The position numbers and the translations under genes are program-made. The notes under the pieces are model-generated. The model was not told where the DNA came from. It made no database searches and saw only the letters and a program-made list of their open reading frames with translations. Source: Promethearchaeota archaeon (GTDB lineage Archaea; Asgardarchaeota; Lokiarchaeia; Sigyniarchaeales; SOKP01). From it: a DNA stretch of 64,000 nt. Below, piece after piece: positions 1 through 17,199 of this stretch (positions within the stretch are counted from its first letter, which is position 1; every line of letters starts with the position of its first letter). The stretch lies in NCBI GenBank assembly GCA_019894975.1, contig JAGXNO010000014.1, forward strand, positions 1 through 64,000, written 5' to 3'.

Positions 1-561
1 ATTATATTCATTACCAGTAACTTCAGTTATGAAATCTAGTAATTCCCAGAGCTGTTCTTTAATATATTTTTTGAAATATTCTTTTTGTCTGTTAGTAGTA
101 TTACTTACTACGTGTGGAATATCGATGGTAAAGTGGGGCACACCACCCATTCTCTCAGATTGAACTTGAAACCAATTAACATGTGTATCACATATTACAT
201 CGCTTGAAAGCATGAATGTTGGTTTTCTTGTACCACCTTCACTCATTTCAGCATTACTTAGCACGGCGCCAATGTTTGTTTTGAAATATGAGCATAAATC
301 ATACGAGTATCCTTGATCTTCAGCAAGTTCAATAAAGTTTTGAGATTTCTTCAGGGCTGCTGAAATCGTTGCTGAATTTTCTGGAAGCATTGGTTGAACA
401 CCCATAGAATATAAAAGTTCCACAGGTGTTCCTGCAGTTGCCCAAGCAGTTGGTGTTCCCTCTCGATGTGCTTGTTCAATTGCTAAAAAATGTCTTCCCA
501 TTTCATTCCTTAGTTTATTGGTTGCATTTAACATCTTGCCAGTTTTCTTCACTTTTGACAT
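1..561 (-). CDS. 2-hydroxyacyl-CoA dehydratase subunit (HgdA/FldB-like), 3' end runs off the window
   Basis: Not in the ORF track. Manual translation from ATG at 561 (SD GGAG upstream) gives MSKVKKTGKMLNATNKLRNEMGRHFLAIEQAHREGTPTAWATAGTPVELLYSMGVQPMLPEN...GYSYDLCSYFK...ICDTHVNWF, and the frame stays open to the window edge. It lies immediately downstream of the partner subunit. Confidence 0.85.
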   Translation of the reverse strand, partial: MSKVKKTGKMLNATNKLRNEMGRHFLAIEQAHREGTPTAWATAGTPVELLYSMGVQPMLPENSATISAALKKSQNFIELAEDQGYSYDLCSYFKTNIGAVLSNAEMSEGGTRKPTFMLSSDVICDTHVNWFQVQSERMGGVPHFTIDIPHVVSNTTNRQKEYFKKYIKEQLWELLDFITEVTGNEYN

Positions 562-575
562 TTTCAATCTCCTTA

Positions 576-1613
576 TTAAATTATTTCTCGAAATGCTTCA
601 AATCTAGTTGTTAATTGATTATATGATTCTCTATTGTATTCCATCTCAACAAAAAGATACGGAATTTCTAACTCTTTAAATTTTTTATTAAAATATGGAT
701 GGGTATATAAAACGGGCTCACAAAATTTTTGAGCGATATTGATAACACCATCTACTTTATAAGTGTGTGCTAAATTCTTTATTATCTCGAATCGTTCATA
801 TGAGGGGAATTTAGTTGAGTAGATTGGCTTGTTTAAATGATATTTAGCTATAGCTTTGATAGGTTCTCCGTCTTCATCAATATTATCATGAAAATATTTA
901 GTTCCTATACATAAATCATCAATTACAATGTGAAAGCCAATATTTTCTAGAAATTGAATGAATTCTGTATCATCTATAACTGAACCTGTTAGTAGTACTT
1001 TTTTTAGCTTTTCATTCGGAAAAGGCTTTCTTTCACTTAAATCTTCCAACTTTGATCTAAGCTTTTTCAAGGCTTCATCTTTATCTGATTGTTGGACATA
1101 CTTAACTAAAGCATGAAGTTCCGAACTTTTTAATATCATTTCTTCTCGAAATCTTGAAATTTTTCTTAACAATCCCCTAATCTGATTCATTTTTTTTATG
1201 GCTTCACGAATTTTTTCAGATGAGATTTTTACATTAAATTTTTCTTCGATTTGTTTTATTAACTCGTTCATATCTTGAATAAAAAAATTTAATGAAGTTT
1301 CACTTCTTTTCAAAGGTGCATTCAAAAAGTATAGAAACTCTATATTCACGCATTCTAACCAAATATCAAACTCACGATTTGTGCAATCACATCCATGCGT
1401 TGTAATAACTCCTTTAATATCATTGTTCAATCCATTTATAGCCTGTTCAAGAATATTTCGTGCCCAGACACAATGAGTTGGAGGTACATGCTCATTTGCT
1501 TTATCTATTCCTATTTTTGGATTTCCAAAAAGTCTCACAGGTGTCATACCCGCAGCAAGAATAATCTCTTCAGGTGTATCGACGCAGGCGTCGAAATACG
1601 CAATTTTTTTCAT
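576..1613 (-). CDS. 2-hydroxyacyl-CoA dehydratase subunit (HgdB/FldC-like)
   Basis: PEEIILAAG start, Fe-S cysteines (HC, GCDC, KFCEP) and the C-terminal QLTTRFEAFRE motif. Confidence 0.9.
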   Translation of the reverse strand: MKKIAYFDACVDTPEEIILAAGMTPVRLFGNPKIGIDKANEHVPPTHCVWARNILEQAINGLNNDIKGVITTHGCDCTNREFDIWLECVNIEFLYFLNAPLKRSETSLNFFIQDMNELIKQIEEKFNVKISSEKIREAIKKMNQIRGLLRKISRFREEMILKSSELHALVKYVQQSDKDEALKKLRSKLEDLSERKPFPNEKLKKVLLTGSVIDDTEFIQFLENIGFHIVIDDLCIGTKYFHDNIDEDGEPIKAIAKYHLNKPIYSTKFPSYERFEIIKNLAHTYKVDGVINIAQKFCEPVLYTHPYFNKKFKELEIPYLFVEMEYNRESYNQLTTRFEAFREII

Positions 1614-1730
1614 TTATATCCCTTATCTAATACTACTTCTTTTAAATTCTCAAGTATTTAAAAAAATATTTATTTGATGCTTTTATTTAATCCTTAATTT
1701 AACGATAATTTTGCTCTTAGGTGACCTAAC

Positions 1731-2039
1731 GTAAGCCAACCCACTGTATCGAGGACCTTATCAAAGGCTATATTAAAGCCAGAAGTAAATATTAAATTAA
1801 AGATTTGGAACACCTATTTAACGGGGAAGCTAGTTAAATTCGATAACTATATGAATTTAATTGTTAAAGATGCCAAGGAGATATATTTCGGTCGTGGGGG
1901 AAAACGCAGTAAAGAGCTAGGGACTGTAATGATCAGGGGTGCCAGCGTTATCTTTATTGGTCAGGATCGTGAAAGATTAGTTTTCCAAGGTGGTGCAGAA
2001 GAGGATTTAATGCATCGAGAAGAAAGTGAAGAGGTATAA
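1731..2039 (+). CDS. lsm: Sm-like (Lsm/SmAP) RNA-binding protein, probable non-canonical GTA start
   Basis: Extending the 1851 ORF upstream gives (V)[49 protein letters not shown] (Sm1 motif) followed by [11 protein letters not shown] (Sm2 motif). The gene is upstream of rpl37e, as in many archaea. SD AGGTGA at 1719-1724. Confidence 0.85.
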
Positions 2040-2044
2040 GGAAA

Positions 2045-2266
2045 ATGGGAAAAGGTACACCGAGTAAAGGAAAGAAGAATAAAGCAGCTAGTCATAAAAC
2101 CTGTCGTCGATGTGGTAATCACTCATACCATCGAAGAAAAAAGTTTTGCGCAAGTTGCGGTTTTGGAAGATCTGCAAAATTACGTCAATATGCATGGCGA
2201 AATAGAACTCGTCCGTCCAATGGTCATAAAGCTTTTTATATGAACAAGAAAAAAGTTAGAGCTTAA
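2045..2266 (+). CDS. rpl37e: 50S ribosomal protein L37e
   Basis: [13 protein letters not shown]...CRRCG...SYH...CASCGFGRS zinc finger. Confidence 0.97.
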
Positions 2267-2399
2267 TCTACTGATTTTATTATAAATTCTTATTCTTAAA
2301 GTAGGAAGAGATATTATTAATTATTAAAATTTCAACTAGATATCTTTATATTTTTCATAGCTTATTTGAAATTAATACGAAACCAAATTTTGAATTTAA

Positions 2400-2774
2400 A
2401 TGAATAGTCTAAAAATTCAACATCTCAACAATGAATTAGATAAGTTGGAAGAAATCAGCGATATCATAGGGACTGCTATTGTAAACCGCAATGGGCTATT
2501 GATCGTTTCAAAATTACCAAGAGATATTGAAGATCGAAAATTTTGTGCGATGGCAGCGACTATGTTTGGTGCTATTGAAACAGCAGCATCAACATTGGGA
2601 AGTAATTCAGTCACTAATTTAACAGTAGAATTTAATGATTTTCAACTTATTATTATGGCTGCCGATGAACAAACAATTTTGGTTTCATTATTAAATTTAA
2701 ATGCTAATTTAGGTTTAATATTGATAGAAATTGAAGAAATAATTAAAAATTTAAAGAATACATTAAAAGAGTGA
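2400..2774 (+). CDS. Roadblock/LC7 domain protein
   Basis: 124 aa with IIGTAIVNRNGLLIVS...AMAATMFGAIETAA...ANLGLILIE, a typical roadblock pattern. Confidence 0.9.
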   Translation: MNSLKIQHLNNELDKLEEISDIIGTAIVNRNGLLIVSKLPRDIEDRKFCAMAATMFGAIETAASTLGSNSVTNLTVEFNDFQLIIMAADEQTILVSLLNLNANLGLILIEIEEIIKNLKNTLKE

Positions 2775-2780
2775 TGACAG

Positions 2781-3521
2781 ATCTTAACTGATAATCAAAA
2801 AGAGAGATATGCACGGCAAATTATCTCTCCAGAAATAGGAGAAGAGGGTCAAGAAAAGATTTCTAAGTTAAAAGTACTTCAGATTGGTTGTGGAGGATTA
2901 GGATCACCGTTTTCTATGTATTTAACTGCAGCAGGAATTAATGAATTGACTTTAATAGATAATGATACTTTAGATATATCAAATCTGCAAAGACAAATTC
3001 TTTATAATGAATCTCAACTTGGTGAAGATAAGGTTAATTCTGCGAAAGAGGTATTATCAAGACTTAATTCTGAAGTCAAAATTAACGCATATAAAGATTT
3101 TATAGATCAAAATTCAGTTAAGAAATATCTAGCCGAAAATAAATATGATTTCATTGTTGATTGTAGTGACAATTTCAAAACTAAGTTTCTAGTCAATAAA
3201 ATAGCATTGGAAAATAACCTAAGATGTGTTATTGCGGGAATCAAAGATTTTTATGGTCAAATTATAACAATAAATCCCAAGAAGTCTGCTTGTTATCAAT
3301 GTGTTTTTTCTGAACCTTTAGATACACCTCAAGGAGAGGGCCCTTTACCCGTTATTGGTGTGACTCCAGGCATATTAGGTACCTTACAGGCTTTGGAAGT
3401 AATCAAGACAGCTCTAGGGCTTCCGAATCTTGAAAATAAAGTTTTGATGGTAAATTTATTAGATTTAAGGTTTAACATAATAGATATTATTAAGAATGAA
3501 GCTTGTTTTTGTTCTAAATGA
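2781..3521 (+). CDS. ThiF/MoeB/UbaA-family E1-like adenylyltransferase, probable ATC start
   Basis: The in-frame upstream extension (I)LTDNQKERYARQIISPEIGEEGQEKISKLKVLQIGCGGLGS supplies the RYxRQ and GxGGLG motifs missing from the tracked 2916 ORF. These are followed by DNDTLDISNLQRQ, DCSDN and CYQC. Confidence 0.9.
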   Translation: MLTDNQKERYARQIISPEIGEEGQEKISKLKVLQIGCGGLGSPFSMYLTAAGINELTLIDNDTLDISNLQRQILYNESQLGEDKVNSAKEVLSRLNSEVKINAYKDFIDQNSVKKYLAENKYDFIVDCSDNFKTKFLVNKIALENNLRCVIAGIKDFYGQIITINPKKSACYQCVFSEPLDTPQGEGPLPVIGVTPGILGTLQALEVIKTALGLPNLENKVLMVNLLDLRFNIIDIIKNEACFCSK

Positions 3522-3555
3522 TATTCAAGAAAAAAAGGGGAGATTTTAGGTCTCC

Positions 3556-4117
3556 TTATTCTAAATTTTGTTCAAAAAATTGTTTAAATAACTGCCCTTT
3601 TTTAGAATAGAGTTTGGATGTTTTTGCACCTTCAAGTTTTCCTTTGTAAATCCCTTCTTTTTTTATCGACGCAGGAATTCCAACTGCCAAGCTTCTAGGT
3701 GGTATCTCCTTACCCAGAAGTACTGCTCCTGCTGCAAGTACTGATCCTTCACCTAGCTTTGAACGATGCAGTACATTTGATCCTATTCCAACAACGCAAC
3801 CATCTTCTATTGTACAAGGTCCGTGAATCATTCTGCTGATTGAAGTCAACTCTTCAAAGATTTGCATGATGACCTATAATACAATCGTTTCCTATGTTTA
3901 CATAACTTCCTGCTTCTATATGGATGGTAACATTTTCTTGAATACTTGTATTTTTTCCAATGTTTATTGAGCCCCAATCACCTCGAAGAATTGCTCCGAA
4001 CCAAACGTTAGAGTTTTCTCCTATAACAACATCCCCAATAATAACTGCTGTCGGAGCAATGTAGGCAGATTCATGAATATCAGGCTTTTTTCCTGTTTCT
4101 GGACTGGGTATAATCAT
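3556..4117 (-). CDS. Gamma-carbonic anhydrase / hexapeptide-repeat protein interrupted by a 31-nt insert (3831-3861)
   Basis: The two tracked ORFs (3854-4117 and 3556-3867) are the N- and C-terminal halves of one protein. Removing 3831-3861 gives ...NDCIIGHHAMIHGPCTIEDG... and an intact 176-aa protein. Confidence 0.9.
3831..3861 (-). other. Candidate bulge-helix-bulge (BHB) intron in mRNA
   Basis: Insert AUCUUUGAAGAGUUGACUUCAAUCAGCAGAA contains an internal UUGAAG/CUUCAA stem. Both junctions fall in 3-nt bulges (AA^A, AA^U) flanking the helix AUGC/GCAG. Exon-exon stems AUC/GAU and AGGUC/GACCU are present. Confidence 0.5.
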
Positions 4118-4260
4118 TATATTTCTTCACCATTCGGTATTATTTGAATCTGAAGAATTAAACCATCAATATTAAAGTTTTGAAAAAGAAAAGAAATGAA
4201 AAAAAATATAAATTAAGTATATTCTATTAGCATTCTTTAAATACTTAGTATTGTCACTTG

Positions 4261-4932
4261 TTATTCCTTTTTTTGTAGATTCATTTCTTCTGAAAAGTAT
4301 CTCTTAATGAATGCAGTTAAGAAATTTTTACCGATTAAATCAGCACCTCTATTTATTAATTCTGATCTAGAGATTTCAGCCTGATTATATCTATTCAGAA
4401 CATCTCGCAATTTTTCTAATTCCGGACCAAGATTTTTTGTTAAAAAATCTTCCAGGTCAGCAATCTTCTCCATTACAGCTTCAATTTTTTCTGAATATTC
4501 TCGGAGTAACTCATGAGTACTTTTCAAGTTATTAGATTTTACATTGATATCTTTTAAAACCTCTTTAGCAACCCATTCTTTCTTACTCATAGCCACGATA
4601 GTGATAAGATTGTTTCCTTCAGTCACTTTTTTAACCTTGATAATCAATGCAATTTCTTGCTTATCGTATTTGCCTTCAGCAAATCCCTTGACTCCTGTTA
4701 ATTCGGAATTAATTGGGTCCAACTCTGTTTCTACAATATGAAAATTATTCTGCCTTAATATAGAACTTACCTCGCTTTCGATTTGATTTAATGACATATC
4801 GTTTTCGAAGGAGATTTCTTTTGTTTTCATTGAATGTGTTTTTTCGTCGAAGATTTCTTTTGAAATTGCCTTTTGGATATTATAATCACAATACTGACGG
4901 GTTGATGGGACTTCTAATTTCCTTATTATCAT
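4261..4932 (-). pseudogene. Hypothetical protein, probably the C-terminal remnant of a larger protein
   Basis: 223-aa ORF with an alpha/beta segment (GVKGFAEGKYDKQEIALII) and a helical tail. It has no convincing start or SD and sits in the fragment mosaic. Confidence 0.5.
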
Positions 4933-5042
4933 TTAGTATTACGCCGACGAATTAAAAATCGTTATGGATTATTATCCTAACTCAAATAACCAAGCAATAA
5001 AATAGAAAAAAATAAAAAAAATTAAAGTTAAAATTTACTCAA

Positions 5043-5279
5043 TTATTTCTCAATTCTTTTTTTCTCTTTCTTCTTCTCAAGAATTTCCTTCTCTAAATCT
5101 TCTTTGAATTTTAAAGCATAATCAGCAATACTTTTACATAAGTTTTCAAATTCCATAGGATCAAATTCTTGACCGAGTTCCCGATTCACGTTTAATTTTT
5201 CTAAATCTTCCCACCTCATATTAATGCCTAAAATAGGAGTAATTTGAATATTATGTTTACGCGCAAGTTTTATTTCTGA
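5043..5279 (-). pseudogene. C-terminal fragment of a TIR-domain protein, paralog of 5955-6989
   Basis: Not in the ORF track. Manual translation SEIKLARKHNIQITPILGINMRWEDLEKLNVNRELGQEFDPMEFENLCKSIADYALKFKEDLEKEILEKKKEKKRIEK* aligns with KELRLGFKHNIQIMPILGENMKWEDLE...FGKEFD of the neighbouring gene. A T-rich terminator-like tract follows. Confidence 0.85.
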
Positions 5280-5427
5280 AGAAATTTAGGATGTCGACAA
5301 AAAATGCAGTTGATAATAATCCAAATCCATTAACGCCAAGATAAATAAACACAAAAACATAATATTCGAGAGATACTACATTATTAATCTGCATATTAAA
5401 GCTGAGGGGATCAGCTAAAATATCTTC

Positions 5428-5919
5428 TTAAAAAAATCTATTTTGCAATTGTGTCAATATTTGTCGCTCAAAAGAATCTTCAGAAAAAAGAGTATTATTC
5501 GGAAAGTCTTCTCTAAAGATGATTTTTGTGCTTGGTTGAGAAGTAACATCCTTAAACAAGTTGTCAGGAGATTGATCAGCAATAGCAAATCCAATCCCTC
5601 GGCTCCGATATTCTTTTAGTAAATCAGAGAATATTTTTGCTATCTGTTCTTTCATGATGAAATCCGCATCATCGCTGTTGTTGGTAATAGGTTTTTCTAA
5701 GATAGCGTGAGCCTAATCAATTAAAATCAGATATTTTAACTCCTCAGCTTCATTGTCTTTTGTAACTGATCTTACAAGTTGAAATATCGCATTCACAATC
5801 AGCATTTTCACAAATTTACTGCACATGGATAAATCAAGAAAAATGTTTTCACCATTCAACCAATCAATGACCCAACTTGGCAAATTCTCAGTGATTTTTA
5901 GTACGACATTCAGGACCAA
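5428..5919 (-). pseudogene. HerA/FtsK/VirB4-like ATPase fragment with a nonsense codon in the Walker B motif
   Basis: The two tracked ORFs are one frame: ...KYLILID(TAG)AHAILEK...LLKEYRSRGIGFAIADQSP...QPSTKIIFR. GAG to TAG in DEAH at 5713-5715. No Walker A half is present. Confidence 0.85.
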
Positions 5920-5954
5920 AATCCCTACATTTTTAGATTTAGAAGCTTTTTTTG

Positions 5955-6989
5955 TTATTTAAGTTTTTTAGCTTTACTTGGTCTCTTCTTTCCCCGAATT
6001 TCTTCTTCTAAATCACTTTTCACTTTAATGATATAATCATATAATTCCTCACGAAATCTACCATATTCTTCAGAATCAAATTCTTTTCCGAATTGTCTAC
6101 TAATATCTAACTCCAAATCTTCCCATTTCATCTCTAAATCTTCCCATTTCATGTTTTCTCCTAATATTGGCATGATTTGTATATTGTGTTTAAATCCTAG
6201 TCTTAATTCCTTAACACAATCTTTTGAATCAATGGAATTCTGTGAAGAAAAGAATATTATTAGTTGACTCCGGGGAACTGTTTTATCCATCCAATCATCT
6301 ATATCTCCCACCATATCCGCCTCGCAATAATGAACTTTTGAAATCCCTTTCTGAGATTCTAAATATTTCACAAGATCACTGATTTGATATTTATCAAAAT
6401 CCTTCATAGCATGACTGATAAAAACTCGAATTCCTCTTCCTTTTATGCCCTTCCTAATAACAACAAGAGAAACAATAGCTGCTATAGTTATTATGGAAAT
6501 ACCTATTATTATAAAAAACCAAATATCGAAAGGAGCACTGTTAATAATTTTTTTTGTTATATTAACATCTTTCCAACTAATATTACCCATAGTATCATTA
6601 GCATAAAATCTGATTGTAACAGAACCTTCTGAAATTTCTTCCCAAACTGCTTCATCAATTACTCCTATTAAACTTGTGATCGATATATTAGTAACACCTC
6701 CATCTAATGTATACCAAAATGCATCTAAATTCCCATCAATGATGGTGATCTCATATCCTGGGGCACCTCCCCACTCCTGATTATGGGTTGGGACGTTGAT
6801 CGTAATTTCTGGCCCTAAAATGTCTTTTCTAACAGATATTTCCTCCCAGTTAATATTTCCTGCTGTGTCGTTTGCATAAAATCTAATAATTACTGTCCCA
6901 TTTAACATGTTAGCCCATGAGGTTTGACTTATCGACTTATTTATAGTAAAAGTTGTATTACTTACTCCATCATCAATTGTATACCACAT
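5955..6989 (-). CDS. Ig-like repeats + transmembrane helix + TIR domain protein (N-terminus disrupted)
   Basis: Two WYTxDxG...IRFYANDTxGNIxW repeats, a TM segment IWFFIIIGISIITIAAIVSLVVIRK, then a TIR domain VFISHA...IIFFSSQNSIDSKDCVKEL. No signal peptide; a 10-bp duplication near 6982-7001 breaks the upstream frame. Confidence 0.85.
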   Translation of the reverse strand: MWYTIDDGVSNTTFTINKSISQTSWANMLNGTVIIRFYANDTAGNINWEEISVRKDILGPEITINVPTHNQEWGGAPGYEITIIDGNLDAFWYTLDGGVTNISITSLIGVIDEAVWEEISEGSVTIRFYANDTMGNISWKDVNITKKIINSAPFDIWFFIIIGISIITIAAIVSLVVIRKGIKGRGIRVFISHAMKDFDKYQISDLVKYLESQKGISKVHYCEADMVGDIDDWMDKTVPRSQLIIFFSSQNSIDSKDCVKELRLGFKHNIQIMPILGENMKWEDLEMKWEDLELDISRQFGKEFDSEEYGRFREELYDYIIKVKSDLEEEIRGKKRPSKAKKLK

Positions 6990-7001
6990 AGTACCACATA
7001 G
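6982..7001. repeat. 10-bp tandem duplication (taccacatag x2)
   Basis: Directly visible. It shifts the frame between upstream YDINGIDTMW and downstream MWYTIDDG. Confidence 0.9.
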
Positions 7002-7357
7002 TATCTATTCCATTAATATCATATATAGAAAATATAACTCCAGAAACTATAGTTAAAGTTGCGAATGACGACTCAATAGAATCCGTTATTATTTAATAGT
7101 TTTCAAATTTACTATTGTAATTCTCTTATTATTGTTTAAAACATAAAATAATGTCTTTACAGTTAATCGGTCCTGGAATAATACATTGTTAATATAAAAA
7201 ACTTTTGAAATTACAAATTTGGTAATGTATGCAAAATTAGATATTTAAAATAAAATTTATCAAAAATCACTTGTAAAAAATAAGTAATAAATAGAATAGT
7301 ATTTTAATAATAATTTAACCAATCAATCCATCTTTAAACAATTAAGGGCAAATAGAA

Positions 7358-9085
7358 ATGGAAGGAAATTTACGATTTATATATAAAAAAGAATACTGGT
7401 ACATCAGTGCATTTATTAATACCAGTGAGATTATTGGAGAAACTAAAGCAGAAGAAATAGAAGCTCTATTATTAGAAAGATTAAAAAATCTAAGTGATAA
7501 GGAATTAGAAAAAACAATTACATTTTTAGAAAAACATCCTAATGCTGAAGAAAAGAGAAATACATTAATGGAAATGACTAAATCTATTACAATCGAATGT
7601 GATTGGGAACCTTTTTTCCAAAATTTCCCCTATACTGATGAAAATAATCCCTATACGGAGGATAATAAAGACTTAGTGTATAATACATTAGGTTACTTCA
7701 AATTGGAAGTAGAATATTTTAAAAATGAGCCATACAATAAAGAAAAAGTGACTCCGGATTTAATACAACAAGTACCATATATTGTTCTTGATATTCTTAA
7801 AGAATTCAGTACAAAAAAAGAAAATCAATTTTTACTTCTTGACACGGAGAGTCCAATTTATGTATTCGTGATATCGACTAAAACAACTCCTATTGAAGTT
7901 CAATGGAATGAACAAAATATAAATAAATATAAAAATGATCTCGGATATTGGACACAAATTTATGCTGGTCAATGGCGTGACTATAGTGAAGATCTATTTG
8001 AAAGAAGAGTTAAAAAAAATCTATCAAATCGTTTATCTGAATTGCACTATATTAAGAGAAATTCTGGATTTATTTACATGACAGAAAGAAACTATGAAAC
8101 AGAATTTTTATATATAAAAGACTACCTTTTAGAACCAACCCCAGAAATGAGAGCAGTGCTATTCGCATTAATGACGATCAATCGTTCTCTTGATGTTTTA
8201 TTTATGAAGAGATATTCGGATGTTTTTATGAGCTTAGAGAGAATTGAAAAAAAAACTAATAATCTGAGATTTTTAAGAGGAATGATTCAGACAAAGATGA
8301 GTCTTATCTATAACAAATTGGATAGGAATCCACGTCAACATTATAAAAGAGTCTTAACCCATTTGATAAGAAAATTCCGTATTGAAGAGATTGTGAGAAG
8401 AACAAATAACAAATTCAAGATGTTATATGATTCGATGCAGGAATTATATTTAAAAAGAAGTGAAGAAAACCAAAAAAGAACCAAAAAAGCTCTCTACTTC
8501 CTGAATATATTATTAGGCGCAGGATTTATAGTAGAATTTGTCAATACAATAAGAATTGCTTTTAGCTTAGAAGAAACAGCTCAACCGTCACCTATAATAC
8601 ATGGATTAATTTCAATAATTTTAGGAGCATCCTTATTAATAACTATTGGTTATTTTACATATAGTAGATATAAGTTAAAAGCTTCAGAATTGGGACATAC
8701 TGTTGACGCTGTTATTCAAGATGATAAGCAGAATATAATATTAATTAAAAGAAAATATGCCCCTTACAAAGGAAAATATGCACTTCCTGGTGGATTTATA
8801 AAATACAATGAAGATCCAGAACAAGCTATAATCAGAGAAGTGAGAGAAGAAACGAATCTTGCTATAGAGATCATAAAAAGAATAGGGACATATGATCAAA
8901 AAGGTCGAGATCCACGTGGGAGAATTGTATCAACAGCATTTAGATGTCGTCTTATAAAAGATATTTCCAGAATGAAAGGTGGAGATGATGCCATTGCTAC
9001 TGAAGCTATCCCAATTGCAGAAATCAAAAATATGGATTTAGCTTTTGATCATAAACTTATATTAAAAGATGCGGGTATTTTATAA
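7358..9085 (+). CDS. Membrane protein with large soluble N-terminal domain, two TM helices (CorA-like layout) and C-terminal ADP-ribose pyrophosphatase-type NUDIX domain
   Basis: NUDIX box GGFIKYNEDPEQAIIREVREETNL plus RDPRG, GDDA and LAFDH. Long helices precede the TMs LYFLNILLGAGFIVEFV and IIHGLISIILGASLLITIGYF. The CorA-like call is inferred from architecture only. Confidence 0.75.
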   Translation: MEGNLRFIYKKEYWYISAFINTSEIIGETKAEEIEALLLERLKNLSDKELEKTITFLEKHPNAEEKRNTLMEMTKSITIECDWEPFFQNFPYTDENNPYTEDNKDLVYNTLGYFKLEVEYFKNEPYNKEKVTPDLIQQVPYIVLDILKEFSTKKENQFLLLDTESPIYVFVISTKTTPIEVQWNEQNINKYKNDLGYWTQIYAGQWRDYSEDLFERRVKKNLSNRLSELHYIKRNSGFIYMTERNYETEFLYIKDYLLEPTPEMRAVLFALMTINRSLDVLFMKRYSDVFMSLERIEKKTNNLRFLRGMIQTKMSLIYNKLDRNPRQHYKRVLTHLIRKFRIEEIVRRTNNKFKMLYDSMQELYLKRSEENQKRTKKALYFLNILLGAGFIVEFVNTIRIAFSLEETAQPSPIIHGLISIILGASLLITIGYFTYSRYKLKASELGHTVDAVIQDDKQNIILIKRKYAPYKGKYALPGGFIKYNEDPEQAIIREVREETNLAIEIIKRIGTYDQKGRDPRGRIVSTAFRCRLIKDISRMKGGDDAIATEAIPIAEIKNMDLAFDHKLILKDAGIL

Positions 9086-9218
9086 AAAATCGATTTTTAA
9101 AAATTTTTTATTCTTTATTATTTACAATAAATAAGGCGTCTTAATTTTTATAATCAAACAACTTATCTTTTCTTAAATCCTTAAATAATATAATAAACAC
9201 TGATTCCTTTCCGGAAAA

Positions 9219-10163
9219 ATGACTGTCAAACAACTGCAAGAAGAAATTTTAACACTAAAAAAGCAAAATGATGTAATAATTTTAGCTCATTATTATCAAC
9301 CAATTGAAATTCAAGAAATTGCTGATTATATAGGAGATTCTCTTGGATTATCTCGAACATCTAATGAAAAAACAAATACAGATTATATTATATTTGCCGG
9401 GGTTGATTTTATGGCTGAGACTGCGTCAATTTTAAATCAGGATAAACATGTGTTGATTCCGAATTATGAATCATGTTGTCCAATGGCAGCATTTCTTACT
9501 CCTGAAATGGTTATAGATTTTAAGCAAAAACATCCCGGATTACCCGTGGTTGTGTATGTCAATTCTACCGCAGCAGTAAAAGCAGAATCGGATATTTGCT
9601 GCACTTCTTCAAATGCAGTGAAAATAACTGAGAATATCAGTAAAGAATTTAATGTAAAAAGCGTTTTATTTGGCCCTGATGCGAATCTAGCGGATTATAC
9701 AGAACAAATGTCGAAAATCAAAACAATAAAAATGCCAAAGTCCGGTCATTGCTACGTGCATTCTCAGATAACTGTGGGTGATATAGAAATTGGGAGAGAA
9801 CGTTATCCTGAAGCAAAACTACTTGTTCATCCCGAATGTGTTCGAGAAGTAAGAGATTTAGCAGATTTTGTGGGATCTACTGCGCATATGTATAATAGAG
9901 TAAAGGACAGTTCTCAAGATGAAAAGGAATTCATTATCGGTACTGAGCAGGGGTTAGTAGAACGTATAGCTCAAGATTTTCAGGATAAAACATTTCACCT
10001 CGCAAAAGATAAGTTGATTTGTTATAATATGAAAAAGCATAATCTCGAATTGATTAAGTATCTTTTAGAAAATTTGGATGATAAAACTTTTGAAGTTAAA
10101 GTCCCTTCTGAAATAGCAAAGCGTGCTATAGAACCGATCGAAAAAATGTTAAAATATTCTTAA
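9219..10163 (+). CDS. nadA: Quinolinate synthase
   Basis: ILAHYYQ, GDSL, GVDFMAET, CPMA, YVNSTAAVKA, CHVH-like CYVH, HPEC, GST, CxxMK motifs. Confidence 0.97.
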   Translation: MTVKQLQEEILTLKKQNDVIILAHYYQPIEIQEIADYIGDSLGLSRTSNEKTNTDYIIFAGVDFMAETASILNQDKHVLIPNYESCCPMAAFLTPEMVIDFKQKHPGLPVVVYVNSTAAVKAESDICCTSSNAVKITENISKEFNVKSVLFGPDANLADYTEQMSKIKTIKMPKSGHCYVHSQITVGDIEIGRERYPEAKLLVHPECVREVRDLADFVGSTAHMYNRVKDSSQDEKEFIIGTEQGLVERIAQDFQDKTFHLAKDKLICYNMKKHNLELIKYLLENLDDKTFEVKVPSEIAKRAIEPIEKMLKYS

Positions 10164-11696
10164 CTAAAAAAAACTAGTGATTTTCTTTTGGTTTCTATTA
10201 AATAAATATCTTTGAAAAGCGTTTGAAGGTTTTCCTGATAAAAGTGCGGTTGTTTGTGATTGTTCCTCAAATTTTTTGATATCCTTATGGTTAAACTTGA
10301 ATTCCTTTTTAATTTCTTCTAATCTAAATAGCCACTTAACAAAATTTTTATATAATCTGCCGCCATTACTTGCTTTTGAAGTATGAGTTTTTTCATAATA
10401 TTTAATATCTTCATCTGAGTAATTTGTATAATTTCTAAAGTTTTGCCCCATCCAAAAAAACCTTGAAACGGAATTTGAAAACTTAGTAATTCTACAACCT
10501 GTTAATTTAACGGTCTTCAAATTGGGTAACCTATTAAGAAAGTCTGGAATTTCTTCAATATTAATATTTCCTGAAAGATCCAAGACTTCTAGATTATTAA
10601 GCTCTTTGATTCCTTCAATATTTTCTATATAATTATTTTTTAAATATAATTTCTTTAGCTTTGTAAGATTATCAAGTTTTGTTATCTTATTTATTCTATT
10701 ACTACTTAGATCCAATTCTTCAATATTCTCAGAATTCTCCTCAAAACCTTTGATATCCTCTATCTTCTCAATCATTCTGTTCTTTAAATTAATTTTTGAA
10801 TCTAAAATAAGACCTATTAATCTATCATTATAAGTTATGATTTTAAGATCTAAATTATAAAAATTGATTTTAGCTTTACTTAGAAATTTGAGAATGGGAA
10901 AACTTCTCACACTCTTATATTTATTATAAATTATTTCTACAAAATCCTGCCTTTTGATTTCTGGAATCTTTTCAATCGCTTTCAGTAAGATCAAATATTT
11001 ATATTTAAATCGAAATCTGTTTATAAAGGAAGAAGTCTGTTGCTTAATAATTTTGATAGATTCAGGATTTAAAGTATTATTAAGTTTTGGAATAACATTC
11101 CTGCAGTATTCATCGATACTTGGAAAGTTTATATCAAGTAGCATGCTTTCAAATTCATCTTCTGTCAGGTAATGTAAATAACCATTTTGAGTTAGGAATC
11201 TAATTACTGTTGGGTGTCCTGTTGCATATCTCAAAGCAATTTCCTCTTTGAATTTTCGCTTAGCAATAGGATCTCCGGCATCAACAAGAGCTTTTAACAA
11301 AGGAAATGCTAAATTGCGATGAAGTATTCTTGTATCATAATTATTCTCTGCCCATGTTTGAATGTTTGAACAATGCCCCCAAAATTCTGTTTCTGGTGGA
11401 ACTTTACCATGATTCCTTTCCATAGAGCGATTGAGTTTAACCGCAGCTTCATCAATCGATTCAATCTCATCATACTCTTCGATTCTATCAGTAGATATAT
11501 TCAATAACAGATACATACATTGCATAAATCTTCGATTATTCACATAGATATTAGTTCTTCCTCCTTCAAGTTTTAGCTTAAGATATTGATTAATTGTGAA
11601 TTCTTTTTTTAAAGGTATTTGTCTTATTGCTAAGAAGAAGATAACAAAAACGAAAGCGAATATTCCATACTTTTGAAATTCAAGCATCTCTTTCAC
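10164..11696 (-). CDS. Leucine-rich repeat protein with a Lokiarchaeia-type N-terminal domain and N-terminal hydrophobic anchor
   Basis: PETEFWGHCSNIQTWAENNYDTRILHRNLAFPLLK domain, LRRs (LDLSSNRI, LYLKNNYI, LDLSGN) and a hydrophobic YGIFAFVFVIFFLAI segment. Confidence 0.8.
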   Translation of the reverse strand: MKEMLEFQKYGIFAFVFVIFFLAIRQIPLKKEFTINQYLKLKLEGGRTNIYVNNRRFMQCMYLLLNISTDRIEEYDEIESIDEAAVKLNRSMERNHGKVPPETEFWGHCSNIQTWAENNYDTRILHRNLAFPLLKALVDAGDPIAKRKFKEEIALRYATGHPTVIRFLTQNGYLHYLTEDEFESMLLDINFPSIDEYCRNVIPKLNNTLNPESIKIIKQQTSSFINRFRFKYKYLILLKAIEKIPEIKRQDFVEIIYNKYKSVRSFPILKFLSKAKINFYNLDLKIITYNDRLIGLILDSKINLKNRMIEKIEDIKGFEENSENIEELDLSSNRINKITKLDNLTKLKKLYLKNNYIENIEGIKELNNLEVLDLSGNINIEEIPDFLNRLPNLKTVKLTGCRITKFSNSVSRFFWMGQNFRNYTNYSDEDIKYYEKTHTSKASNGGRLYKNFVKWLFRLEEIKKEFKFNHKDIKKFEEQSQTTALLSGKPSNAFQRYLFNRNQKKITSFF

Positions 11697-11766
11697 AAAA
11701 TAGGATTTTTGTTATTTTGAAGATATTTTTTTATAGATGTCCAATACTTATAAAAAGCGACACTAA

Positions 11767-12876
11767 CTAGGATTCTTGATTTGATGATAAAGTAAGGATA
11801 TTCAAATTAATATCAATATTAATGCCACTTAAAATATTTTCCTTGAGCTTTAAACCCTCTTTAGACATTAATAATTTTTTCGATTGAGTGATACCTTCCA
11901 TTATTTTTTCTCTTTCCATATCTAAGAAACCCATCTCAATAGCATTCTTAATTATTTGGTTTAATACTAATAATTGAAATTGTACTTGAATAGCGTCCCA
12001 TATCAACCCCATCTCCTTTAAATGATCAGTTATTTCTTCGGCAATAATGTCTAAATCGTAGATCATATCGTAGATCCCTTCTTGAAGATTAATTATTTCA
12101 TCAATTAATTTGTCTTTTATAAGTCGTAAAGTTGTAGTTCCCAATAAATCTTCTTCATGAAAGAAGAAATCAGTATCTCCTCTTTGAATTAAATAAAATC
12201 CAAAATCACTCTTAATTAATTTCGATCTGGCCAAGTAGTTAATTGCTTCCCTCGATACCTTATAAACTTCGCAGAATTGTTCTAAATTTAATTTATATCC
12301 AACAAATTTTTGAGGGGTGGGTTCATCGAAATGCCAGTAATTTCTTGCGAATGCTCCCTGTCCTAAGATTGAGTTATAAAAGATATAAAAAAGAGAGAGA
12401 TACAAATCCCTGTCTTGCTGTAATTCAAAGAAATTATCACCAATTTTAGAGATGATTCTTACAATGTGGATTATAAAAGCATCTACAACACTTATTTCCT
12501 TATAGAAATCGATAAGATCCTCGAGTTTTCTTACATTGTCTTTTAATTCATTAACTATAAATAGCTCATCTTTTAACTTTAAAGGCTCCTCTCCAAGTTT
12601 TTCAATTCCTCGTTCTGTAATTATATATCCTTGATACTGTTTATTGGTCTGTTTGTCTGTAAATATTCTTTGCTCTACGTTTTTCTTTTCTCTATGAAAA
12701 TTTAGATATTTGGAAACAGTCGATCTGCTTAGATTCGAATATTTTATTAAGTTAGTGAATCTCTGTGGACCTAAATTTCTAAGGATAAATAATATTCTCC
12801 TACTATTATCCTCAATGTTACTCGATTTATTTAATAACTCATTCTTTAATTTTTTTGAAATATTCCAGCTTTCCAT
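11767..12876 (-). CDS. Winged-helix transcriptional regulator with large C-terminal domain
   Basis: RILFILRNLGPQRFTNLIKYSNLSRSTVSKYL...YIITERG, an ArsR/MarR-like wHTH. Confidence 0.75.
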   Translation of the reverse strand: MESWNISKKLKNELLNKSSNIEDNSRRILFILRNLGPQRFTNLIKYSNLSRSTVSKYLNFHREKKNVEQRIFTDKQTNKQYQGYIITERGIEKLGEEPLKLKDELFIVNELKDNVRKLEDLIDFYKEISVVDAFIIHIVRIISKIGDNFFELQQDRDLYLSLFYIFYNSILGQGAFARNYWHFDEPTPQKFVGYKLNLEQFCEVYKVSREAINYLARSKLIKSDFGFYLIQRGDTDFFFHEEDLLGTTTLRLIKDKLIDEIINLQEGIYDMIYDLDIIAEEITDHLKEMGLIWDAIQVQFQLLVLNQIIKNAIEMGFLDMEREKIMEGITQSKKLLMSKEGLKLKENILSGINIDINLNILTLSSNQES

Positions 12877-12895
12877 ACTAATAAGAAGTTAGTCT

Positions 12896-12933
12896 AAGTA
12901 TAAAAACCTATACTTTTTTTCTATACTTATACT
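12896..12933. promoter_or_regulatory. Inverted repeat AAGTATA-N6-TATACTT plus extra TATACT half-sites, putative autoregulatory operator
   Basis: IR at 12896-12915 and half-sites at 12922-12933, 20-57 bp upstream of the wHTH gene. Confidence 0.45.
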
Positions 12934-13190
12934 AAAAGAATTATGAAATACCAATATTCATAAAAAAAGTATATTTTCAAGAAAAATTAGTCTGATGTGA
13001 ATTTTTAATAATTCAGAACCTTTTCGAGTTGATTAACATTGAAAAATTTTTGCTATAACATTGATTTAATTATACTGATTCATGTAAACTGAAGTTTGAT
13101 GTAAAATACCGAAGACCTTAAGTAAAAGCTCTCTCAATATCTTTTTAATAGAACATAAAAAAAAAATTTAATAAAATAGTTTGAAATAAT

Positions 13191-13445
13191 ATGACACAAT
13201 TCAGATTTAGATTAACGGGAGTACCCCCAGATCAGGCTATAAAATTGATCGAGCTAGATCCTAATAATTCAATAGCGGAGATCAAAAAAACAGTCCAAAG
13301 GGAATATAAATTAAACCCTATTTTAGCGATTCAATTTATTTTTAAAGGAAAAGTTTTACCTGACCAATTAAAGTTCACAAAAATAGGGATTCATCCAAAG
13401 AAAGACGTTATTACCGTAATGGCTACACAAGCTGGTGGAAGGTAG
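13191..13445 (+). CDS. Ubiquitin-like protein ending GG-R
   Basis: 84-aa beta-grasp pattern: SIAEIKKTV, QFIFKGKVLPD (compare ubiquitin RLIFAGKQLED), C-terminus ATQAGGR. Confidence 0.85.
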   Translation: MTQFRFRLTGVPPDQAIKLIELDPNNSIAEIKKTVQREYKLNPILAIQFIFKGKVLPDQLKFTKIGIHPKKDVITVMATQAGGR

Positions 13446-13498
13446 CCATTCCATCAATTTAATAAGAGTATAACGGGGTTAACACGGGGTTTATAAGA

Positions 13499-13537
13499 GA
13501 AAAAAGCTGGCCACTTTTTCTTTTTTATTTTTTTTTA
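13499..13537. terminator. Hairpin with T tracts between convergent genes
   Basis: AAAAAG-CTGGCCA-CTTTTT followed by long T runs. Confidence 0.5.
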
Positions 13538-13559
13538 GAATTTCATATTGATTCTAGTC

Positions 13560-13985
13560 TTAATACTCAATATACATAGGCTCTCCATACTCATTTAGTT
13601 TAGAAGAAACCAAACCCTCAACTATTTCTGAAAAAGGTTTAAATTCTGAAATTTCCCCGTTGAAATCGTCCAATGAATTCTTAAATTCAGTAAGAAAAGC
13701 GGTCAGTATGCTTTCTGCAATATCTTCCAGTAATTCTTTTTTTATTTTTTTATTACCACATTTGAGAACCAAATGATAATTGGATCTAGCGGTATAAAAG
13801 AAAAAGATAAAGTTATCAAGAGTTAGCATCCTTAAACTTTCCTTGAAACTATTTTTTGTAAATCTACAAATGATATCAAAATAACTTGCTAATGATTGAT
13901 GATCATCAATTAAATTTACATTTACAAAATTATGATAGAACAAAGCTATACCAGCCTTATTTATTATCATTATTTCTTGAATCAT
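13560..13985 (-). CDS. Longin-like domain protein
   Basis: MIQEIMIINKAGIALFYHNF start and FNGEISEFKPF end, typical of Asgard longins. Confidence 0.75.
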   Translation of the reverse strand: MIQEIMIINKAGIALFYHNFVNVNLIDDHQSLASYFDIICRFTKNSFKESLRMLTLDNFIFFFYTARSNYHLVLKCGNKKIKKELLEDIAESILTAFLTEFKNSLDDFNGEISEFKPFSEIVEGLVSSKLNEYGEPMYIEY

Positions 13986-14178
13986 ATTAATCCTGTTATT
14001 TAGATAACTTTTTGATATCCTTATTGAGTTTATAAAGAAACTGTAACTCTGAAAGATTTCTCACATAATTTATGGGAAAATTAGTTTTTAAACTTTTATT
14101 CTAGAATTTATTTACTTCTAAATAAACCTCTAAACACGAATAATTAAGAAAAAAAAGAAAATACAATAAAATTGATTT

Positions 14179-15231
14179 CTAAATAATTTGTTCAATTGGT
14201 ATTTTTTTAATATTGTTAAAAGCAGTTGTTAAACATCTTTCCGCGTCGAATACAATATTATTTATTATATCCGACACACACTCTACACTATCAATAAGTT
14301 CAGCGCTTTGACCTAGAAATGCAACACCCTCTTCAATTTTTCCTTCATATGTTCTTTCTAGTTCAGCTAATTCCCGTTCTACTTTTGCCATTGAAGTCTC
14401 AGCAGCTTGTTTTTCTTCTTTACTTTCAACAAGGTTATGGTTGTCAGCCAGTTTATTTTTCCATACCCTAGCGGGCCCAAAAATTCCTGTTTTCAGCTCA
14501 GTATCTGAAGCAGATGATTCTACAACGATTTTCTTATAATTATCATGAAATTCACATTCCTTGGTTGAGATGAATCTAGTACCCATTGCGATAGCACCCA
14601 CACCCATAGATAAAGCAGATGCTAATCCTTCACCAGTAGCATAACCCCCTGAGGCTATTATCGGAACATTTGGTAGACTTTTCATTATTCGCTGTAATAA
14701 AACTAAGGTGCTTATATTTTCATATGACTGATGTCCCCCACCTTCAGTCCCTGTAATAACTAATCCATCAACACCAGTATCAATAAGTTTTTGTGCTAGA
14801 TAGAGTGAAGGTGCGACATGAAAATGCTTGATATTTGAACCACTCTCTTTTAATTTTTCATAGTGTTTATTATACATCAATCTCGGAGATCCTGCGCTTG
14901 TGATTAAATAAACACACTGTTCCTTAATTCTTGGGTTTTCCATGATAAATTTTGGAAGTTGTCGGCAAAGTTTTATAGCATCTGGTTGTAATCTAGCTGT
15001 TCTTATGTTAAACCCAAAAGGTTTGTCGGTGTGTTCAACAACATATTCCATACTTTTTTTCATTTCATCCAGAGTTACAGTCCCGTGTACCGTAACATGA
15101 CTCAACACACCTAATCCTCCTGCTTCTGATACTGCCACAGTTAATTTAGTTGTATAAAAAGGTCCCATTGGAGCACTTAAAATTGGATGTTTAATCCCTA
15201 ACATTCTTGTAATGTCTGTTTCTATTACCAT
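14179..15231 (-). CDS. Nitronate monooxygenase / FabK-like flavin oxidoreductase
   Basis: LGIKHPILSAPM, AVSEAGGLG, GTEGGGH, IIASGG, MGTRF. Confidence 0.9.
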   Translation of the reverse strand: MVIETDITRMLGIKHPILSAPMGPFYTTKLTVAVSEAGGLGVLSHVTVHGTVTLDEMKKSMEYVVEHTDKPFGFNIRTARLQPDAIKLCRQLPKFIMENPRIKEQCVYLITSAGSPRLMYNKHYEKLKESGSNIKHFHVAPSLYLAQKLIDTGVDGLVITGTEGGGHQSYENISTLVLLQRIMKSLPNVPIIASGGYATGEGLASALSMGVGAIAMGTRFISTKECEFHDNYKKIVVESSASDTELKTGIFGPARVWKNKLADNHNLVESKEEKQAAETSMAKVERELAELERTYEGKIEEGVAFLGQSAELIDSVECVSDIINNIVFDAERCLTTAFNNIKKIPIEQII

Positions 15232-15708: not shown

Positions 15709-15897
15709 ATGGCATGGGGAGGATCGCTTAATAAAGAAGGTTCTGATTATCTTAGGAGCATAAGAAAGGCTGAAGATGTGATTCAATTTCTAGAAAATCT
15801 AAAAGATCAACTAATCGGTGAGGAACAAATCCATGTGACCAATGTAATTGAAATTATAACTAATTATATAACAAAACTTTCTGAGAAAGGAAAATAG
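15709..15897 (+). CDS. Small hypothetical helical protein (62 aa)
   Basis: ATG at 15709 lies 6 nt after GGTG. Protein-like amphipathic sequence in an otherwise empty intergenic space. Confidence 0.65.
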   Translation: MAWGGSLNKEGSDYLRSIRKAEDVIQFLENLKDQLIGEEQIHVTNVIEIITNYITKLSEKGK

Positions 15898-15900
15898 AAA

Positions 15901-16592: not shown

Positions 16593-17195
16593 ATGACTGA
16601 AGAATCAAATGAGAAAACGGAAAAGATTCAATTAGAGGGAATAATTAAAGAAGATAAAATTATTGTCTCAGACAAAAGAGGGATTGAAGAATTTTATAGG
16701 CCATCTTATATTGGAACTATTGAACAAGATAGTCAAGAACAAGACATTTTAGTTTTTGATGCTATGGAAGTTTTGCTCCTAATCGAAAGGCACAGAATAT
16801 TGGTTTGGGAGGATAATGATAAGAGCAAACAATTATATGATTTTGAAGGTTTACTGACTTACTTTACAAAATTTGACAATCGATTATGGCATAAGTATAT
16901 TATTTATATGGATTTAAGGAAAAGAGGGTATATTGTTAGGATGGGTTATGGTAATGGAATAGAATTTCGTGTTTTTAAGAGAGGTGCTGATTTTGAGAAA
17001 GATACTGCACAATTCTTAATATTTCCTGTATTTGAAGGTGATCCCATCGAATTAAGAGATTTAGATAAAATTTCTCGAGTCGCTTTAAGCTCCCGTAAAG
17101 ATTTAATTGTGGCAACAGTGGACAGGTTGAGCAAGCCTATCTACTACAGTGTAAAGAAATTTCAATTATCAAATAAAGAGGAAAATAGCGAGTAG
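16593..17195 (+). CDS. endA: tRNA-splicing endonuclease subunit, probably non-catalytic (structural)
   Basis: YMDLRKRGYIVR..G.EFRVFKRGA, RVALSSRKDLIVATVD...IYY. The catalytic Tyr and His positions read F and T. Confidence 0.85.
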   Translation: MTEESNEKTEKIQLEGIIKEDKIIVSDKRGIEEFYRPSYIGTIEQDSQEQDILVFDAMEVLLLIERHRILVWEDNDKSKQLYDFEGLLTYFTKFDNRLWHKYIIYMDLRKRGYIVRMGYGNGIEFRVFKRGADFEKDTAQFLIFPVFEGDPIELRDLDKISRVALSSRKDLIVATVDRLSKPIYYSVKKFQLSNKEENSE

Positions 17196-17199
17196 GGTA

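What the first reader, a model, noticed from the sequence alone, without database searches (positions are those of the whole stretch)
3805..3880. Candidate bulge-helix-bulge intron inside a protein-coding gene of an Asgard archaeon
Seen: the gamma-CA gene is broken by exactly 31 nt (3831-3861). Removing them restores the metal-binding hexapeptide turn IGHHAMIHG and a full 176-aa ORF with no other lesion. On the mRNA strand the region folds as exon stems AGGUC/GACCU and AUC/GAU, central helix AUGC/GCAG (3 of 4 pairs), 3-nt bulges AAA and AAU, then a U-A pair and the intron hairpin UUGAAG/CUUCAA. Cutting each bulge after its second nucleotide removes precisely the frame-restoring 31 nt. Established: this is the hBHBh' geometry and cut position used by archaeal tRNA-splicing endonucleases, and such mRNA introns are known mainly from crenarchaeal cbf5. 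Inference: this organism may splice mRNA with EndA and RtcB, which would matter for the lineage closest to eukaryotes. Caveats: the helices are imperfect, and the site is close to a fragment mosaic, so a captured DNA scrap or a misassembly is possible.
Basis: partly seen in the sequence, partly recalled or inferred. Interest (0 to 1): 0.88.

Follow-up and report, generated by a model that had tools for sequence, protein, structure and literature searches.

The report
tRNA-type mini-intron in Asgard carbonic-anhydrase gene
A carbonic-anhydrase-like gene of an Asgard archaeon is split by a 31-base insert shaped like the introns archaea cut out of tRNAs; related species keep it with matching base changes while the protein stays under selection, so it is very probably spliced out of the mRNA, which the papers I could search document for only one archaeal coding sequence (cbf5).

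Summary
Observation confirmed. A 31-nt insert (3861-3831, minus strand) breaks a gamma-carbonic-anhydrase-like gene; removing it gives a 176-aa ORF. It is neither a misassembly nor decay: 8 species plus metagenome contigs give 16 distinct alleles (30-31 nt) at this codon, other orthologues lack it, and both exons have dN/dS 0.02-0.18. The bulge-helix-bulge shape is conserved: three central-helix pairs hold in 48/48 cells, the fourth is A.G (13) or A-U (3, two independent changes), and the hairpin covaries (0/500 shuffles). In three alleles the downstream ATG has become TTG, and only the canonical endonuclease cut restores Met86 (invariant in 182/182 intact homologues), which argues against gene fission. 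The genome encodes two EndA subunits and RtcB, has tRNA introns with similar G.A-mismatched helices, and has five more homology-defined 30-32-nt inserts of this shape in other genes. Not shown: any spliced RNA (the one RNA run found misses the gene). Caveat: a frame-breaking 29-nt register is predicted more stable. Verdict: cbf5-type, EndA/RtcB-spliced mRNA intron (about 0.88). The scan's notes report this intron and this class in other genomes; I found no paper reporting it in Asgard coding genes.

The parts
3862..4117 (-). Exon 1 of the gamma-CA-like (hexapeptide-repeat) gene: codons 1-85 plus the A of Met86; carries the first two predicted Zn-ligand histidines (H66, H83)
   Evidence: PF00132; alignment to PDB 1v3w
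3831..3861 (-). 31-nt BHB-type intron (phase 1, inside the Met86 codon A|UG); in-frame UGA at 3856-3854; hairpin 3857-3852/3845-3840; 3' strand of central helix 3836-3833
3556..3830 (-). Exon 2: UG of Met86 to the stop; carries the third predicted Zn ligand H88 (3825-3823)
3861..3875 (-). 5' junction: outer stem AGGUC, exon helix AUC, central helix strand AUGC, bulge AA^A (predicted cut between 3862 and 3861)
3817..3836 (-). 3' junction: central helix strand GCAG, bulge AA^U (predicted cut between 3831 and 3830), exon helix GAU, outer stem GACCU
16593..17195 (+). tRNA-splicing endonuclease subunit gene on the same contig (probably the structural beta subunit; the paralogue with the catalytic Tyr/His/Lys is on contig C22). 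Candidate trans-acting factor; its linkage to the gene is not claimed to be meaningful
   Evidence: (PF01974)

Best explanation
The 31-nt insert is an endonuclease-spliced mRNA intron of the cbf5/tRNA type. Shown from sequence: it entered the Met86 codon once, in the ancestor of one clade of a Promethearchaeota (Lokiarchaeia) genus, and has been kept under selection for a relaxed bulge-helix-bulge fold while both exons stay under purifying selection. Inferred from established archaeal biochemistry: the pre-mRNA folds into the motif; the two-subunit EndA cuts each 3-nt bulge after its second base; RtcB joins the exons into HHAMIHG, restoring the 176-aa beta-helix with all three Zn-ligand histidines; the excised 31-mer is probably circularised or degraded. 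The early in-frame UGA would stop ribosomes on unspliced message. No regulatory role is shown; the intron may simply be tolerated because it can be removed.
For: Same-site insert in 8 species (7 x 31 nt, 1 x 30 nt) and 16 distinct alleles. The other orthologues listed in a 154-genome order-wide search are uninterrupted at this site. The intron-bearing copies form one group: 93/86 support on protein, 83/81 on DNA. dN/dS is 0.02-0.18 in each exon at dS 0.3-2.6 (exon 2 of the 30-nt allele was not validly scored there). Central-helix pairs 2-4 are paired in 48/48 cells; pair 1 is A.G in 13 and A-U in 3, never A.A or A.C, with G-to-U arising at least twice. H plus h': 81.7% paired, 16 two-sided changes, covariation 0.219, 0/500 shuffles, slid controls 33-49%. 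Three alleles end in U, so only the canonical cut gives Met86, which is invariant in 182/182 intact homologues. Synonymous sites flanking the junction are frozen in the intron clade (7/13 invariant against 11/101 elsewhere; 0-1 of 7-9 in samples of intronless orthologues). Two EndA paralogues and a full-length RtcB are present. tRNA-Lys(UUU), -Arg(GCG) and -Arg(CCU) introns of the same genome (26-32 nt, boundaries assigned by me) also have 3/4 helices with a terminal G.A. Five further homology-defined 30-32-nt frame-breaking inserts in this genome each have a register with H of 3/4 or 4/4.
Against: No spliced RNA or peptide seen: the only RNA run found does not cover the gene, and no full-length protein nests within the intron clade. 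A register shifted by one base (UGCA/UGCA, bulge GAA) would excise 29 nt and leave a stop; it has 4/4 pairs in 8 of 16 alleles and is 0.2-5.7 kcal/mol more stable in nearest-neighbour energies for the 10 alleles tested. Strictly the motif is 'relaxed' in this allele, and a preprint on Asgard tRNA introns notes that the relaxed class alone is often met by chance (10.64898/2026.10.13.758758). The alleles are related, so the shuffle counts overstate significance. The genome has gamma-CA paralogues (48%, 35% and 33% identical), so essentiality cannot be argued.
Confidence: 0.88

Rival explanations
1. Gene fission: the insert supplies a stop (UGA) and the second half re-initiates at Met86, so two polypeptides (87 and 91 aa) assemble into a split beta-helix without splicing.
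For: The in-frame TGA at intron positions 6-8 is invariant in all 16 alleles, exon 2 starts at ATG in 13 of them, and both halves are under purifying selection, which fission also predicts. This lineage uses unusual start codons elsewhere, so TTG could serve.
Against: Three alleles have lost the ATG (TTG) while the exon-1 A that completes the spliced ATG is invariant in 16/16. No Shine-Dalgarno-like motif in any of 10 alleles, though only 37-44% of operon-internal genes have one, so this is weak. The would-be start codon lies inside a conserved helix. Fission does not explain pairing of the insert's 3' end with exon-1 codons, the two G-to-U changes, hairpin covariation, or frozen synonymous sites. 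The tail residues of the first half are unconstrained (NL, NF, KM, KI, KA, IF, RM, NY, MM, KD). Other inserts of this kind in the genome are not followed by ATG.
Confidence: 0.05
2. The insert is removed from the RNA, but by another route or at a non-canonical register (for example a different nuclease, or EndA producing a mixture of 31-nt and 29-nt excisions).
For: The competing register is predicted more stable and is perfect in half of the alleles.
Against: Symmetric cuts in the shifted register always remove 29 nt and leave a stop. Its fourth pair is broken in 8/16 alleles with no compensation, while the same base covaries with intron base 2 in the productive register (U-A, A-U, G-U). At 31 nt it is too short for a group I or II ribozyme (own knowledge), and there is no Rfam match.
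Confidence: 0.04
3. Translational recoding (programmed frameshift or ribosome hop) reads across the insert.
For: A hairpin and an in-frame stop near the take-off point resemble bypass signals (own knowledge of T4 gene 60).
Against: 31-nt alleles need a frame change and 30-nt alleles do not. There is no matched take-off and landing codon in the right frame. Frameshifting would leave about 10 extra residues between two Zn ligands, and intact homologues have no gap there.
Confidence: 0.02
4. Pseudogene, captured DNA scrap or misassembly.
For: A degenerate region lies at about 4930-5960 in this genome; paralogues exist; one relative has a truly decayed copy (G017).
Against: Independent assemblies from NCBI, JGI, ENA and Logan carry the insert at the same codon. 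Every allele with a complete exon 2 keeps it open (89-93 codons; one contig ends at 60). dN/dS is below 0.2. The 31-mer has no other copy in the genome (best match 13 nt; profile search best E 0.25).
Confidence: 0.01

Closest known systems
BHB intron in the cbf5 (pseudouridine synthase) pre-mRNA of Crenarchaeota (Watanabe 2002; Yokobori 2009, PMC2738675)
   Same: Short (cbf5 introns are 16-44 bp), no ORF, inside a coding sequence at a functionally critical codon, relaxed BHB at the borders, predicted cuts between the second and third bulge bases, host with a two-subunit EndA, patchy presence among relatives.
   Different: Different phylum (Promethearchaeota, Asgard), unrelated gene, apparently a recent gain within one genus, one of at least six such inserts in coding genes of this genome; splicing was shown experimentally for cbf5 and not here.
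BHB intron in the 5' UTR of Haloferax volcanii HVO_1309 mRNA (Schwarz 2020, PMC7714728)
   Same: An mRNA substrate of the tRNA-splicing endonuclease.
   Different: That intron is untranslated and does not break a reading frame; here removal is needed to make the full protein.
Non-canonical tRNA introns of Asgard archaea (bioRxiv 10.64898/2026.10.13.758758)
   Same: Same superphylum, repeated recent gains, BHB or relaxed-BHB borders, two EndA paralogues in most genomes; tRNA introns of this genome are 26-32 nt with similar mismatched helices.
   Different: That paper covers tRNA genes only (0 occurrences of 'mRNA' or 'cbf5'). No sequence match links this intron to a tRNA intron in this genome.
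Gamma-class carbonic anhydrase-like proteins (P. horikoshii PDB 1v3w; YrdA/Cap type)
   Same: An intact homologue 82% identical to the spliced product matches 1v3w at E 8.5e-36, with the His motifs aligned.
   Different: Enzyme activity was not tested; the host protein is ordinary apart from its interrupted gene.

Membership tests
Archaeal endonuclease-spliced (BHB) mRNA intron, cbf5 type | Short intervening sequence absent from orthologues, whose removal restores a conserved ORF | tested here: met
Archaeal endonuclease-spliced (BHB) mRNA intron, cbf5 type | Two 3-nt bulges on opposite strands of a 4-bp central helix, strict form (4/4 pairs) | tested here: not met
   3/4 with terminal A.G in this allele and in 13 of 16; 4/4 in 3 alleles. 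cbf5 introns are themselves mostly unconventional (PMC2738675), so this lowers 'canonical BHB' only.
Archaeal endonuclease-spliced (BHB) mRNA intron, cbf5 type | Relaxed BHB with flanking exon helix h and intron helix h', conserved by covariation | tested here: met
   h 3/3 in all 16 alleles; H pairs 2-4 in 48/48 cells; h' two-sided changes in 5 of 9 pairs, 0/500 shuffles
Archaeal endonuclease-spliced (BHB) mRNA intron, cbf5 type | Exon borders fall after the second base of each bulge | tested here: met
   In alleles L158, L164 and L165 only this cut yields the invariant Met86; a prediction from homology, not a mapped cut
Archaeal endonuclease-spliced (BHB) mRNA intron, cbf5 type | Host encodes a two-subunit splicing endonuclease and an RtcB ligase | tested here: met
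   Two PF01974 genes (one with the Tyr/His/Lys motifs) and a full-length RtcB; subunit assembly inferred
Archaeal endonuclease-spliced (BHB) mRNA intron, cbf5 type | Spliced mRNA detected in vivo | tested here: inconclusive
   The one RNA run found has no contig over the gene; no joined product in protein or contig searches
Archaeal endonuclease-spliced (BHB) mRNA intron, cbf5 type | Cleavage by EndA in vitro | not testable with these tools
   bench experiment
Group I/II self-splicing or homing-endonuclease intron | Ribozyme core or intron-encoded ORF | tested here: not met
   31 nt, single hairpin, no Rfam match at E up to 1
Gamma-carbonic anhydrase-like (YrdA/Cap) protein | Hexapeptide-repeat beta-helix with three His metal ligands | tested here: met
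   PF00132 in both exons; H66, H83 and H88 align with the 1v3w His motifs (ligand assignment from own knowledge); H88 lies in exon 2

The most novel reading that the evidence does not exclude
In this Asgard lineage, tRNA-type splicing is a routine step of mRNA maturation: 30-32-nt BHB introns are gained repeatedly in ordinary protein-coding genes, persist across species divergence, and make expression of many genes depend on EndA and RtcB. The relatives of the eukaryotic host would then have multi-gene mRNA splicing without a spliceosome.
Probability: 0.78. Interest if true: 0.88.

Novelty: new variant of a known kind. Interest (0 to 1): 0.74.

Why it matters
In the papers I could search, splicing inside an archaeal coding sequence is documented for one gene, cbf5; introns in other protein genes were only predicted (PMC2738675, PMC7714728). 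A conserved, selected intron in an ordinary metabolic gene of an Asgard archaeon, with five more candidates found here in the same genome, would turn that exception into a general process in the archaeal group closest to eukaryotes. It bears on how introns could spread in coding genes before the spliceosome, although the chemistry differs and no ancestry is implied. It also means annotation pipelines call such genes as two fragments (as seen), so Asgard gene inventories may miss intact genes. This locus is a good test substrate: 16 natural alleles, a register conflict, and a cut site fixed by homology.

Tried and rejected
RNA evidence: one metatranscriptome held 5% of the words; laid on window 1-18000 it had no contig over 3001-4800, so no result either way. 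Its one joint (14564-14720) is at low likeness with a 26-nt side and was not pursued. A junction pattern allowing 0-60 nt found one uninterrupted JGI contig (L068), but it is an intronless relative closest to G021 (83.5%), outside the intron clade. Three protein searches found no full-length or partial junction-spanning product from the clade; the best intact homologue is 82-83% identical and falls outside it; P0122 has a different gene context. No donor found for the intron (blastn best 13 nt; nhmmer best E 0.25); a by-eye likeness of one allele to the tRNA-Arg(GCG) intron was not supported by that search. A first structure score that favoured long stems was useless, and one census script timed out. 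The broken copy in G017 is a decayed pseudogene, not a second intron site. No structure or complex prediction was run: halves of a split gene pass by likeness and would not separate fission from splicing. I did not submit the joined protein to the external tools because it has no reference. Literature searches for Asgard or Promethearchaeota mRNA introns returned nothing relevant; the library lacks most subscription papers.

Full report
Observation. The gene runs 4117..3556 on the minus strand and its frame stops after 87 codons at a TGA inside the insert. Removing 3861-3831 yields a 176-aa ORF. Many deletion lengths reopen the frame, so frame restoration alone proves nothing; the length and site are fixed by homology, because 26 intronless orthologues from the same genus align with a gap of exactly 31 columns between the Ala85 and Met86 codons. 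With exons fixed, 21 of 20,000 shuffled inserts match the central helix and hairpin, and this is the only 31-nt window of 505 in the gene that meets the geometry. The 31-mer has no other copy in the 3.9-Mb assembly.

Organism and host gene. Sister genomes carry GenBank titles of Promethearchaeota; two are titled Thor- and Hodarchaeota but are the same sequences as genomes that GTDB places in the window's genus. Both exons hit PF00132. An intact homologue 82% identical to the spliced product matches P. horikoshii 1v3w at E 8.5e-36. By that alignment and my own knowledge of the family, the metal ligands are H66 and H83 in exon 1 and H88 in exon 2, so the unspliced product lacks one ligand and half the protein.

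Distribution. Eight species of the genus carry the insert at this codon: seven of 31 nt and one of 30 nt with an in-frame TGA. JGI, ENA, NCBI and Logan contigs bring the total to 16 distinct alleles. The other orthologues listed in an order-wide search of 154 genomes are uninterrupted here. The intron-bearing copies form one group (93/86 on protein, 83/81 on DNA), although a smaller tree left one intronless sister unresolved. One gain is the simplest reading. Misassembly is excluded, and the degenerate stretch at about 4930-5960 is a separate, nearly genome-specific feature.

Selection. Pairwise dN/dS is 0.02-0.17 in exon 1 and 0.02-0.18 in exon 2, at dS 0.3-2.6 (the 30-nt allele's exon 2 was mis-framed in that run and is left out). 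So both halves are still making something useful. Among the seven 31-nt genome alleles the inserts are 20-28 of 31 identical despite that synonymous divergence. Synonymous sites in codons 78-94 are invariant at 7 of 13 in the intron clade against 11 of 101 elsewhere in the gene; random sets of eight intronless orthologues, which are more divergent, show 0-1 of 7-9 there. This fits an RNA structure that includes exon bases.

Structure across alleles. The exon helix is 3/3 in all 16. Central-helix pairs 2-4 are paired in 48 of 48 cells, and the only changes are G-C to G-U. Pair 1 is A.G in 13 alleles and A-U in three, and the tree forces at least two separate changes. For H plus h', 81.7% of cells pair, with 16 two-sided changes and covariation 0.219; none of 500 shuffles reaches these, and slid controls give 33-49%. 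The alleles are related, so these counts are not probabilities.

The cut position. In the window's allele an AA repeat allows three equivalent cuts. In three alleles (L158, L164, L165) the insert ends in U, and only the cut after the second base of each bulge yields HHAMIHG; the neighbouring cuts give Leu or Lys at a position that is Met in 182 of 182 intact homologues. The three are close kin and probably reflect one change. The same alleles turn the downstream ATG into TTG, while the exon-1 A that completes the spliced ATG never varies. This is the best evidence against the main rival, gene fission with re-initiation at Met86. That rival also leaves the exon-intron pairing unexplained, has no Shine-Dalgarno support (weak evidence), and the tail residues of the first half vary freely.

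The caveat. A register shifted by one base (UGCA/UGCA with a GAA bulge) would remove 29 nt and leave a stop. It is perfect in 8 of 16 alleles and 0.2-5.7 kcal/mol more stable by nearest-neighbour energies in the 10 alleles tested, and in this allele ViennaRNA gives the central helix a probability of only 0.10-0.14. Against it: its fourth pair is broken without compensation in the other 8 alleles, including the window's, whereas the same base covaries with intron base 2 in the productive register. Three of four tRNA introns I examined in this genome also have 3/4 helices with a terminal G.A pair (boundaries assigned by me, and checked by ARAGORN calling the spliced tRNA), so the enzyme probably accepts such helices. 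Some mis-splicing cannot be excluded and is a testable prediction.

Machinery and class. The genome encodes two EndA paralogues, one with the catalytic Tyr/His/Lys motifs on C22 and one without them at window 16593-17195, plus RtcB. Defining inserts by homology alone (paralogues, and 1.6 Mb of an intronless congener), I found five more frame-breaking inserts of 30-32 nt: in an acyl-CoA-ligase-like gene (C101), a JAMM gene (C120), a small 74-aa gene (C124), an Elf1-like Zn-ribbon gene (C94) and a Rab-like GTPase gene (C89); gene names are my reading of the motifs. Each has a homology-compatible register with H of 4/4 (four) or 3/4 (one), and none is followed directly by ATG. The scan's earlier notes report this gamma-CA intron in other genomes and many similar inserts; I used them as leads and count only what I tested.

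What is not shown. No spliced RNA: the single RNA run found has no contig over the gene, and no joined product turned up in protein or contig searches. EndA cleavage and RtcB ligation are inferred from established archaeal biochemistry.

Comparison with print. The cbf5 intron of Crenarchaeota is the same kind: 16-44 bp, relaxed BHB, two-subunit EndA, in a critical codon; that paper says introns in other protein genes were predicted but unconfirmed (PMC2738675). Haloferax has a spliced 5' UTR intron (PMC7714728). A 2026 preprint documents repeated tRNA-intron gain in Asgard archaea but does not mention mRNA. Five searches found no report for Asgard coding genes, within a library that lacks most subscription journals.

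Verdict. A real, conserved feature, best explained as an EndA/RtcB-spliced mRNA intron (0.88). The mechanism is of a known kind; the lineage, the ordinary host gene and the several-genes-per-genome scale are new relative to the papers searched. Interest 0.74, held back by the lack of direct RNA evidence at this locus.

Noticed in passing
window 1720-2039 (+): The Sm/LSm gene upstream of rpl37e appears to start at GTA (1732-1734), 6 nt after an AGGTGA Shine-Dalgarno-like motif, where five relatives have ATG; the first ATG is 40 codons downstream.
   Followed up: partly
window about 2770-2790 (+): The ThiF-family gene has conserved coding sequence upstream of its first ATG and seems to start at ATC; eight aligned relatives have ATC, ATT or ATA at that place after an AGGTGA/AAGTGA-like motif, suggesting a conserved non-AUG start.
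   Followed up: partly
window 16593-17195 (+): tRNA-splicing endonuclease subunit lacking the catalytic Tyr and His (probable beta subunit), upstream of a PIN/ATPase-like gene; the catalytic paralogue is on contig C22.
   Followed up: partly
window about 4930-5960: Degenerate stretch of short ORF fragments (TIR-tail-like, HerA-like by eye), absent from the relatives checked except for 280 nt in L066.
   Followed up: partly
G000 contigs C101:40054, C120:71352, C124:315, C94:40858, C89:25371: Five more homology-defined 30-32-nt frame-breaking inserts with BHB-like geometry in protein-coding genes of the same genome.
   Followed up: partly
G000 C90:15748-15852, C89:52605-52707, C97:24955-25061, C87:60478-60614: tRNA-Lys(UUU), -Arg(GCG) and -Arg(CCU) have 26-32-nt variable-region introns with 3/4 central helices and a terminal G.A pair; tRNA-Asp(GUC) has a canonical 29-nt anticodon intron and seems to have a second one in the D-arm.
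   Followed up: partly
G000 C48:320-1171: A second, partial RtcB match (profile positions 150-426) on a contig of about 1.2 kb; may be contamination (8.6% estimated) or a paralogue.
   Followed up: no
G017:C24:96800-98400 (L156): A decayed gamma-CA pseudogene fragment with an in-frame TAG, unlike the clean intron-split copies.
   Followed up: yes
G000 C10, C77, C103, C109: Several members of one large paralogous family are split near residue 715-720 of an 849-aa reference, with 17-73 extra bases; these look like two-gene arrangements and no BHB register stood out.
   Followed up: partly
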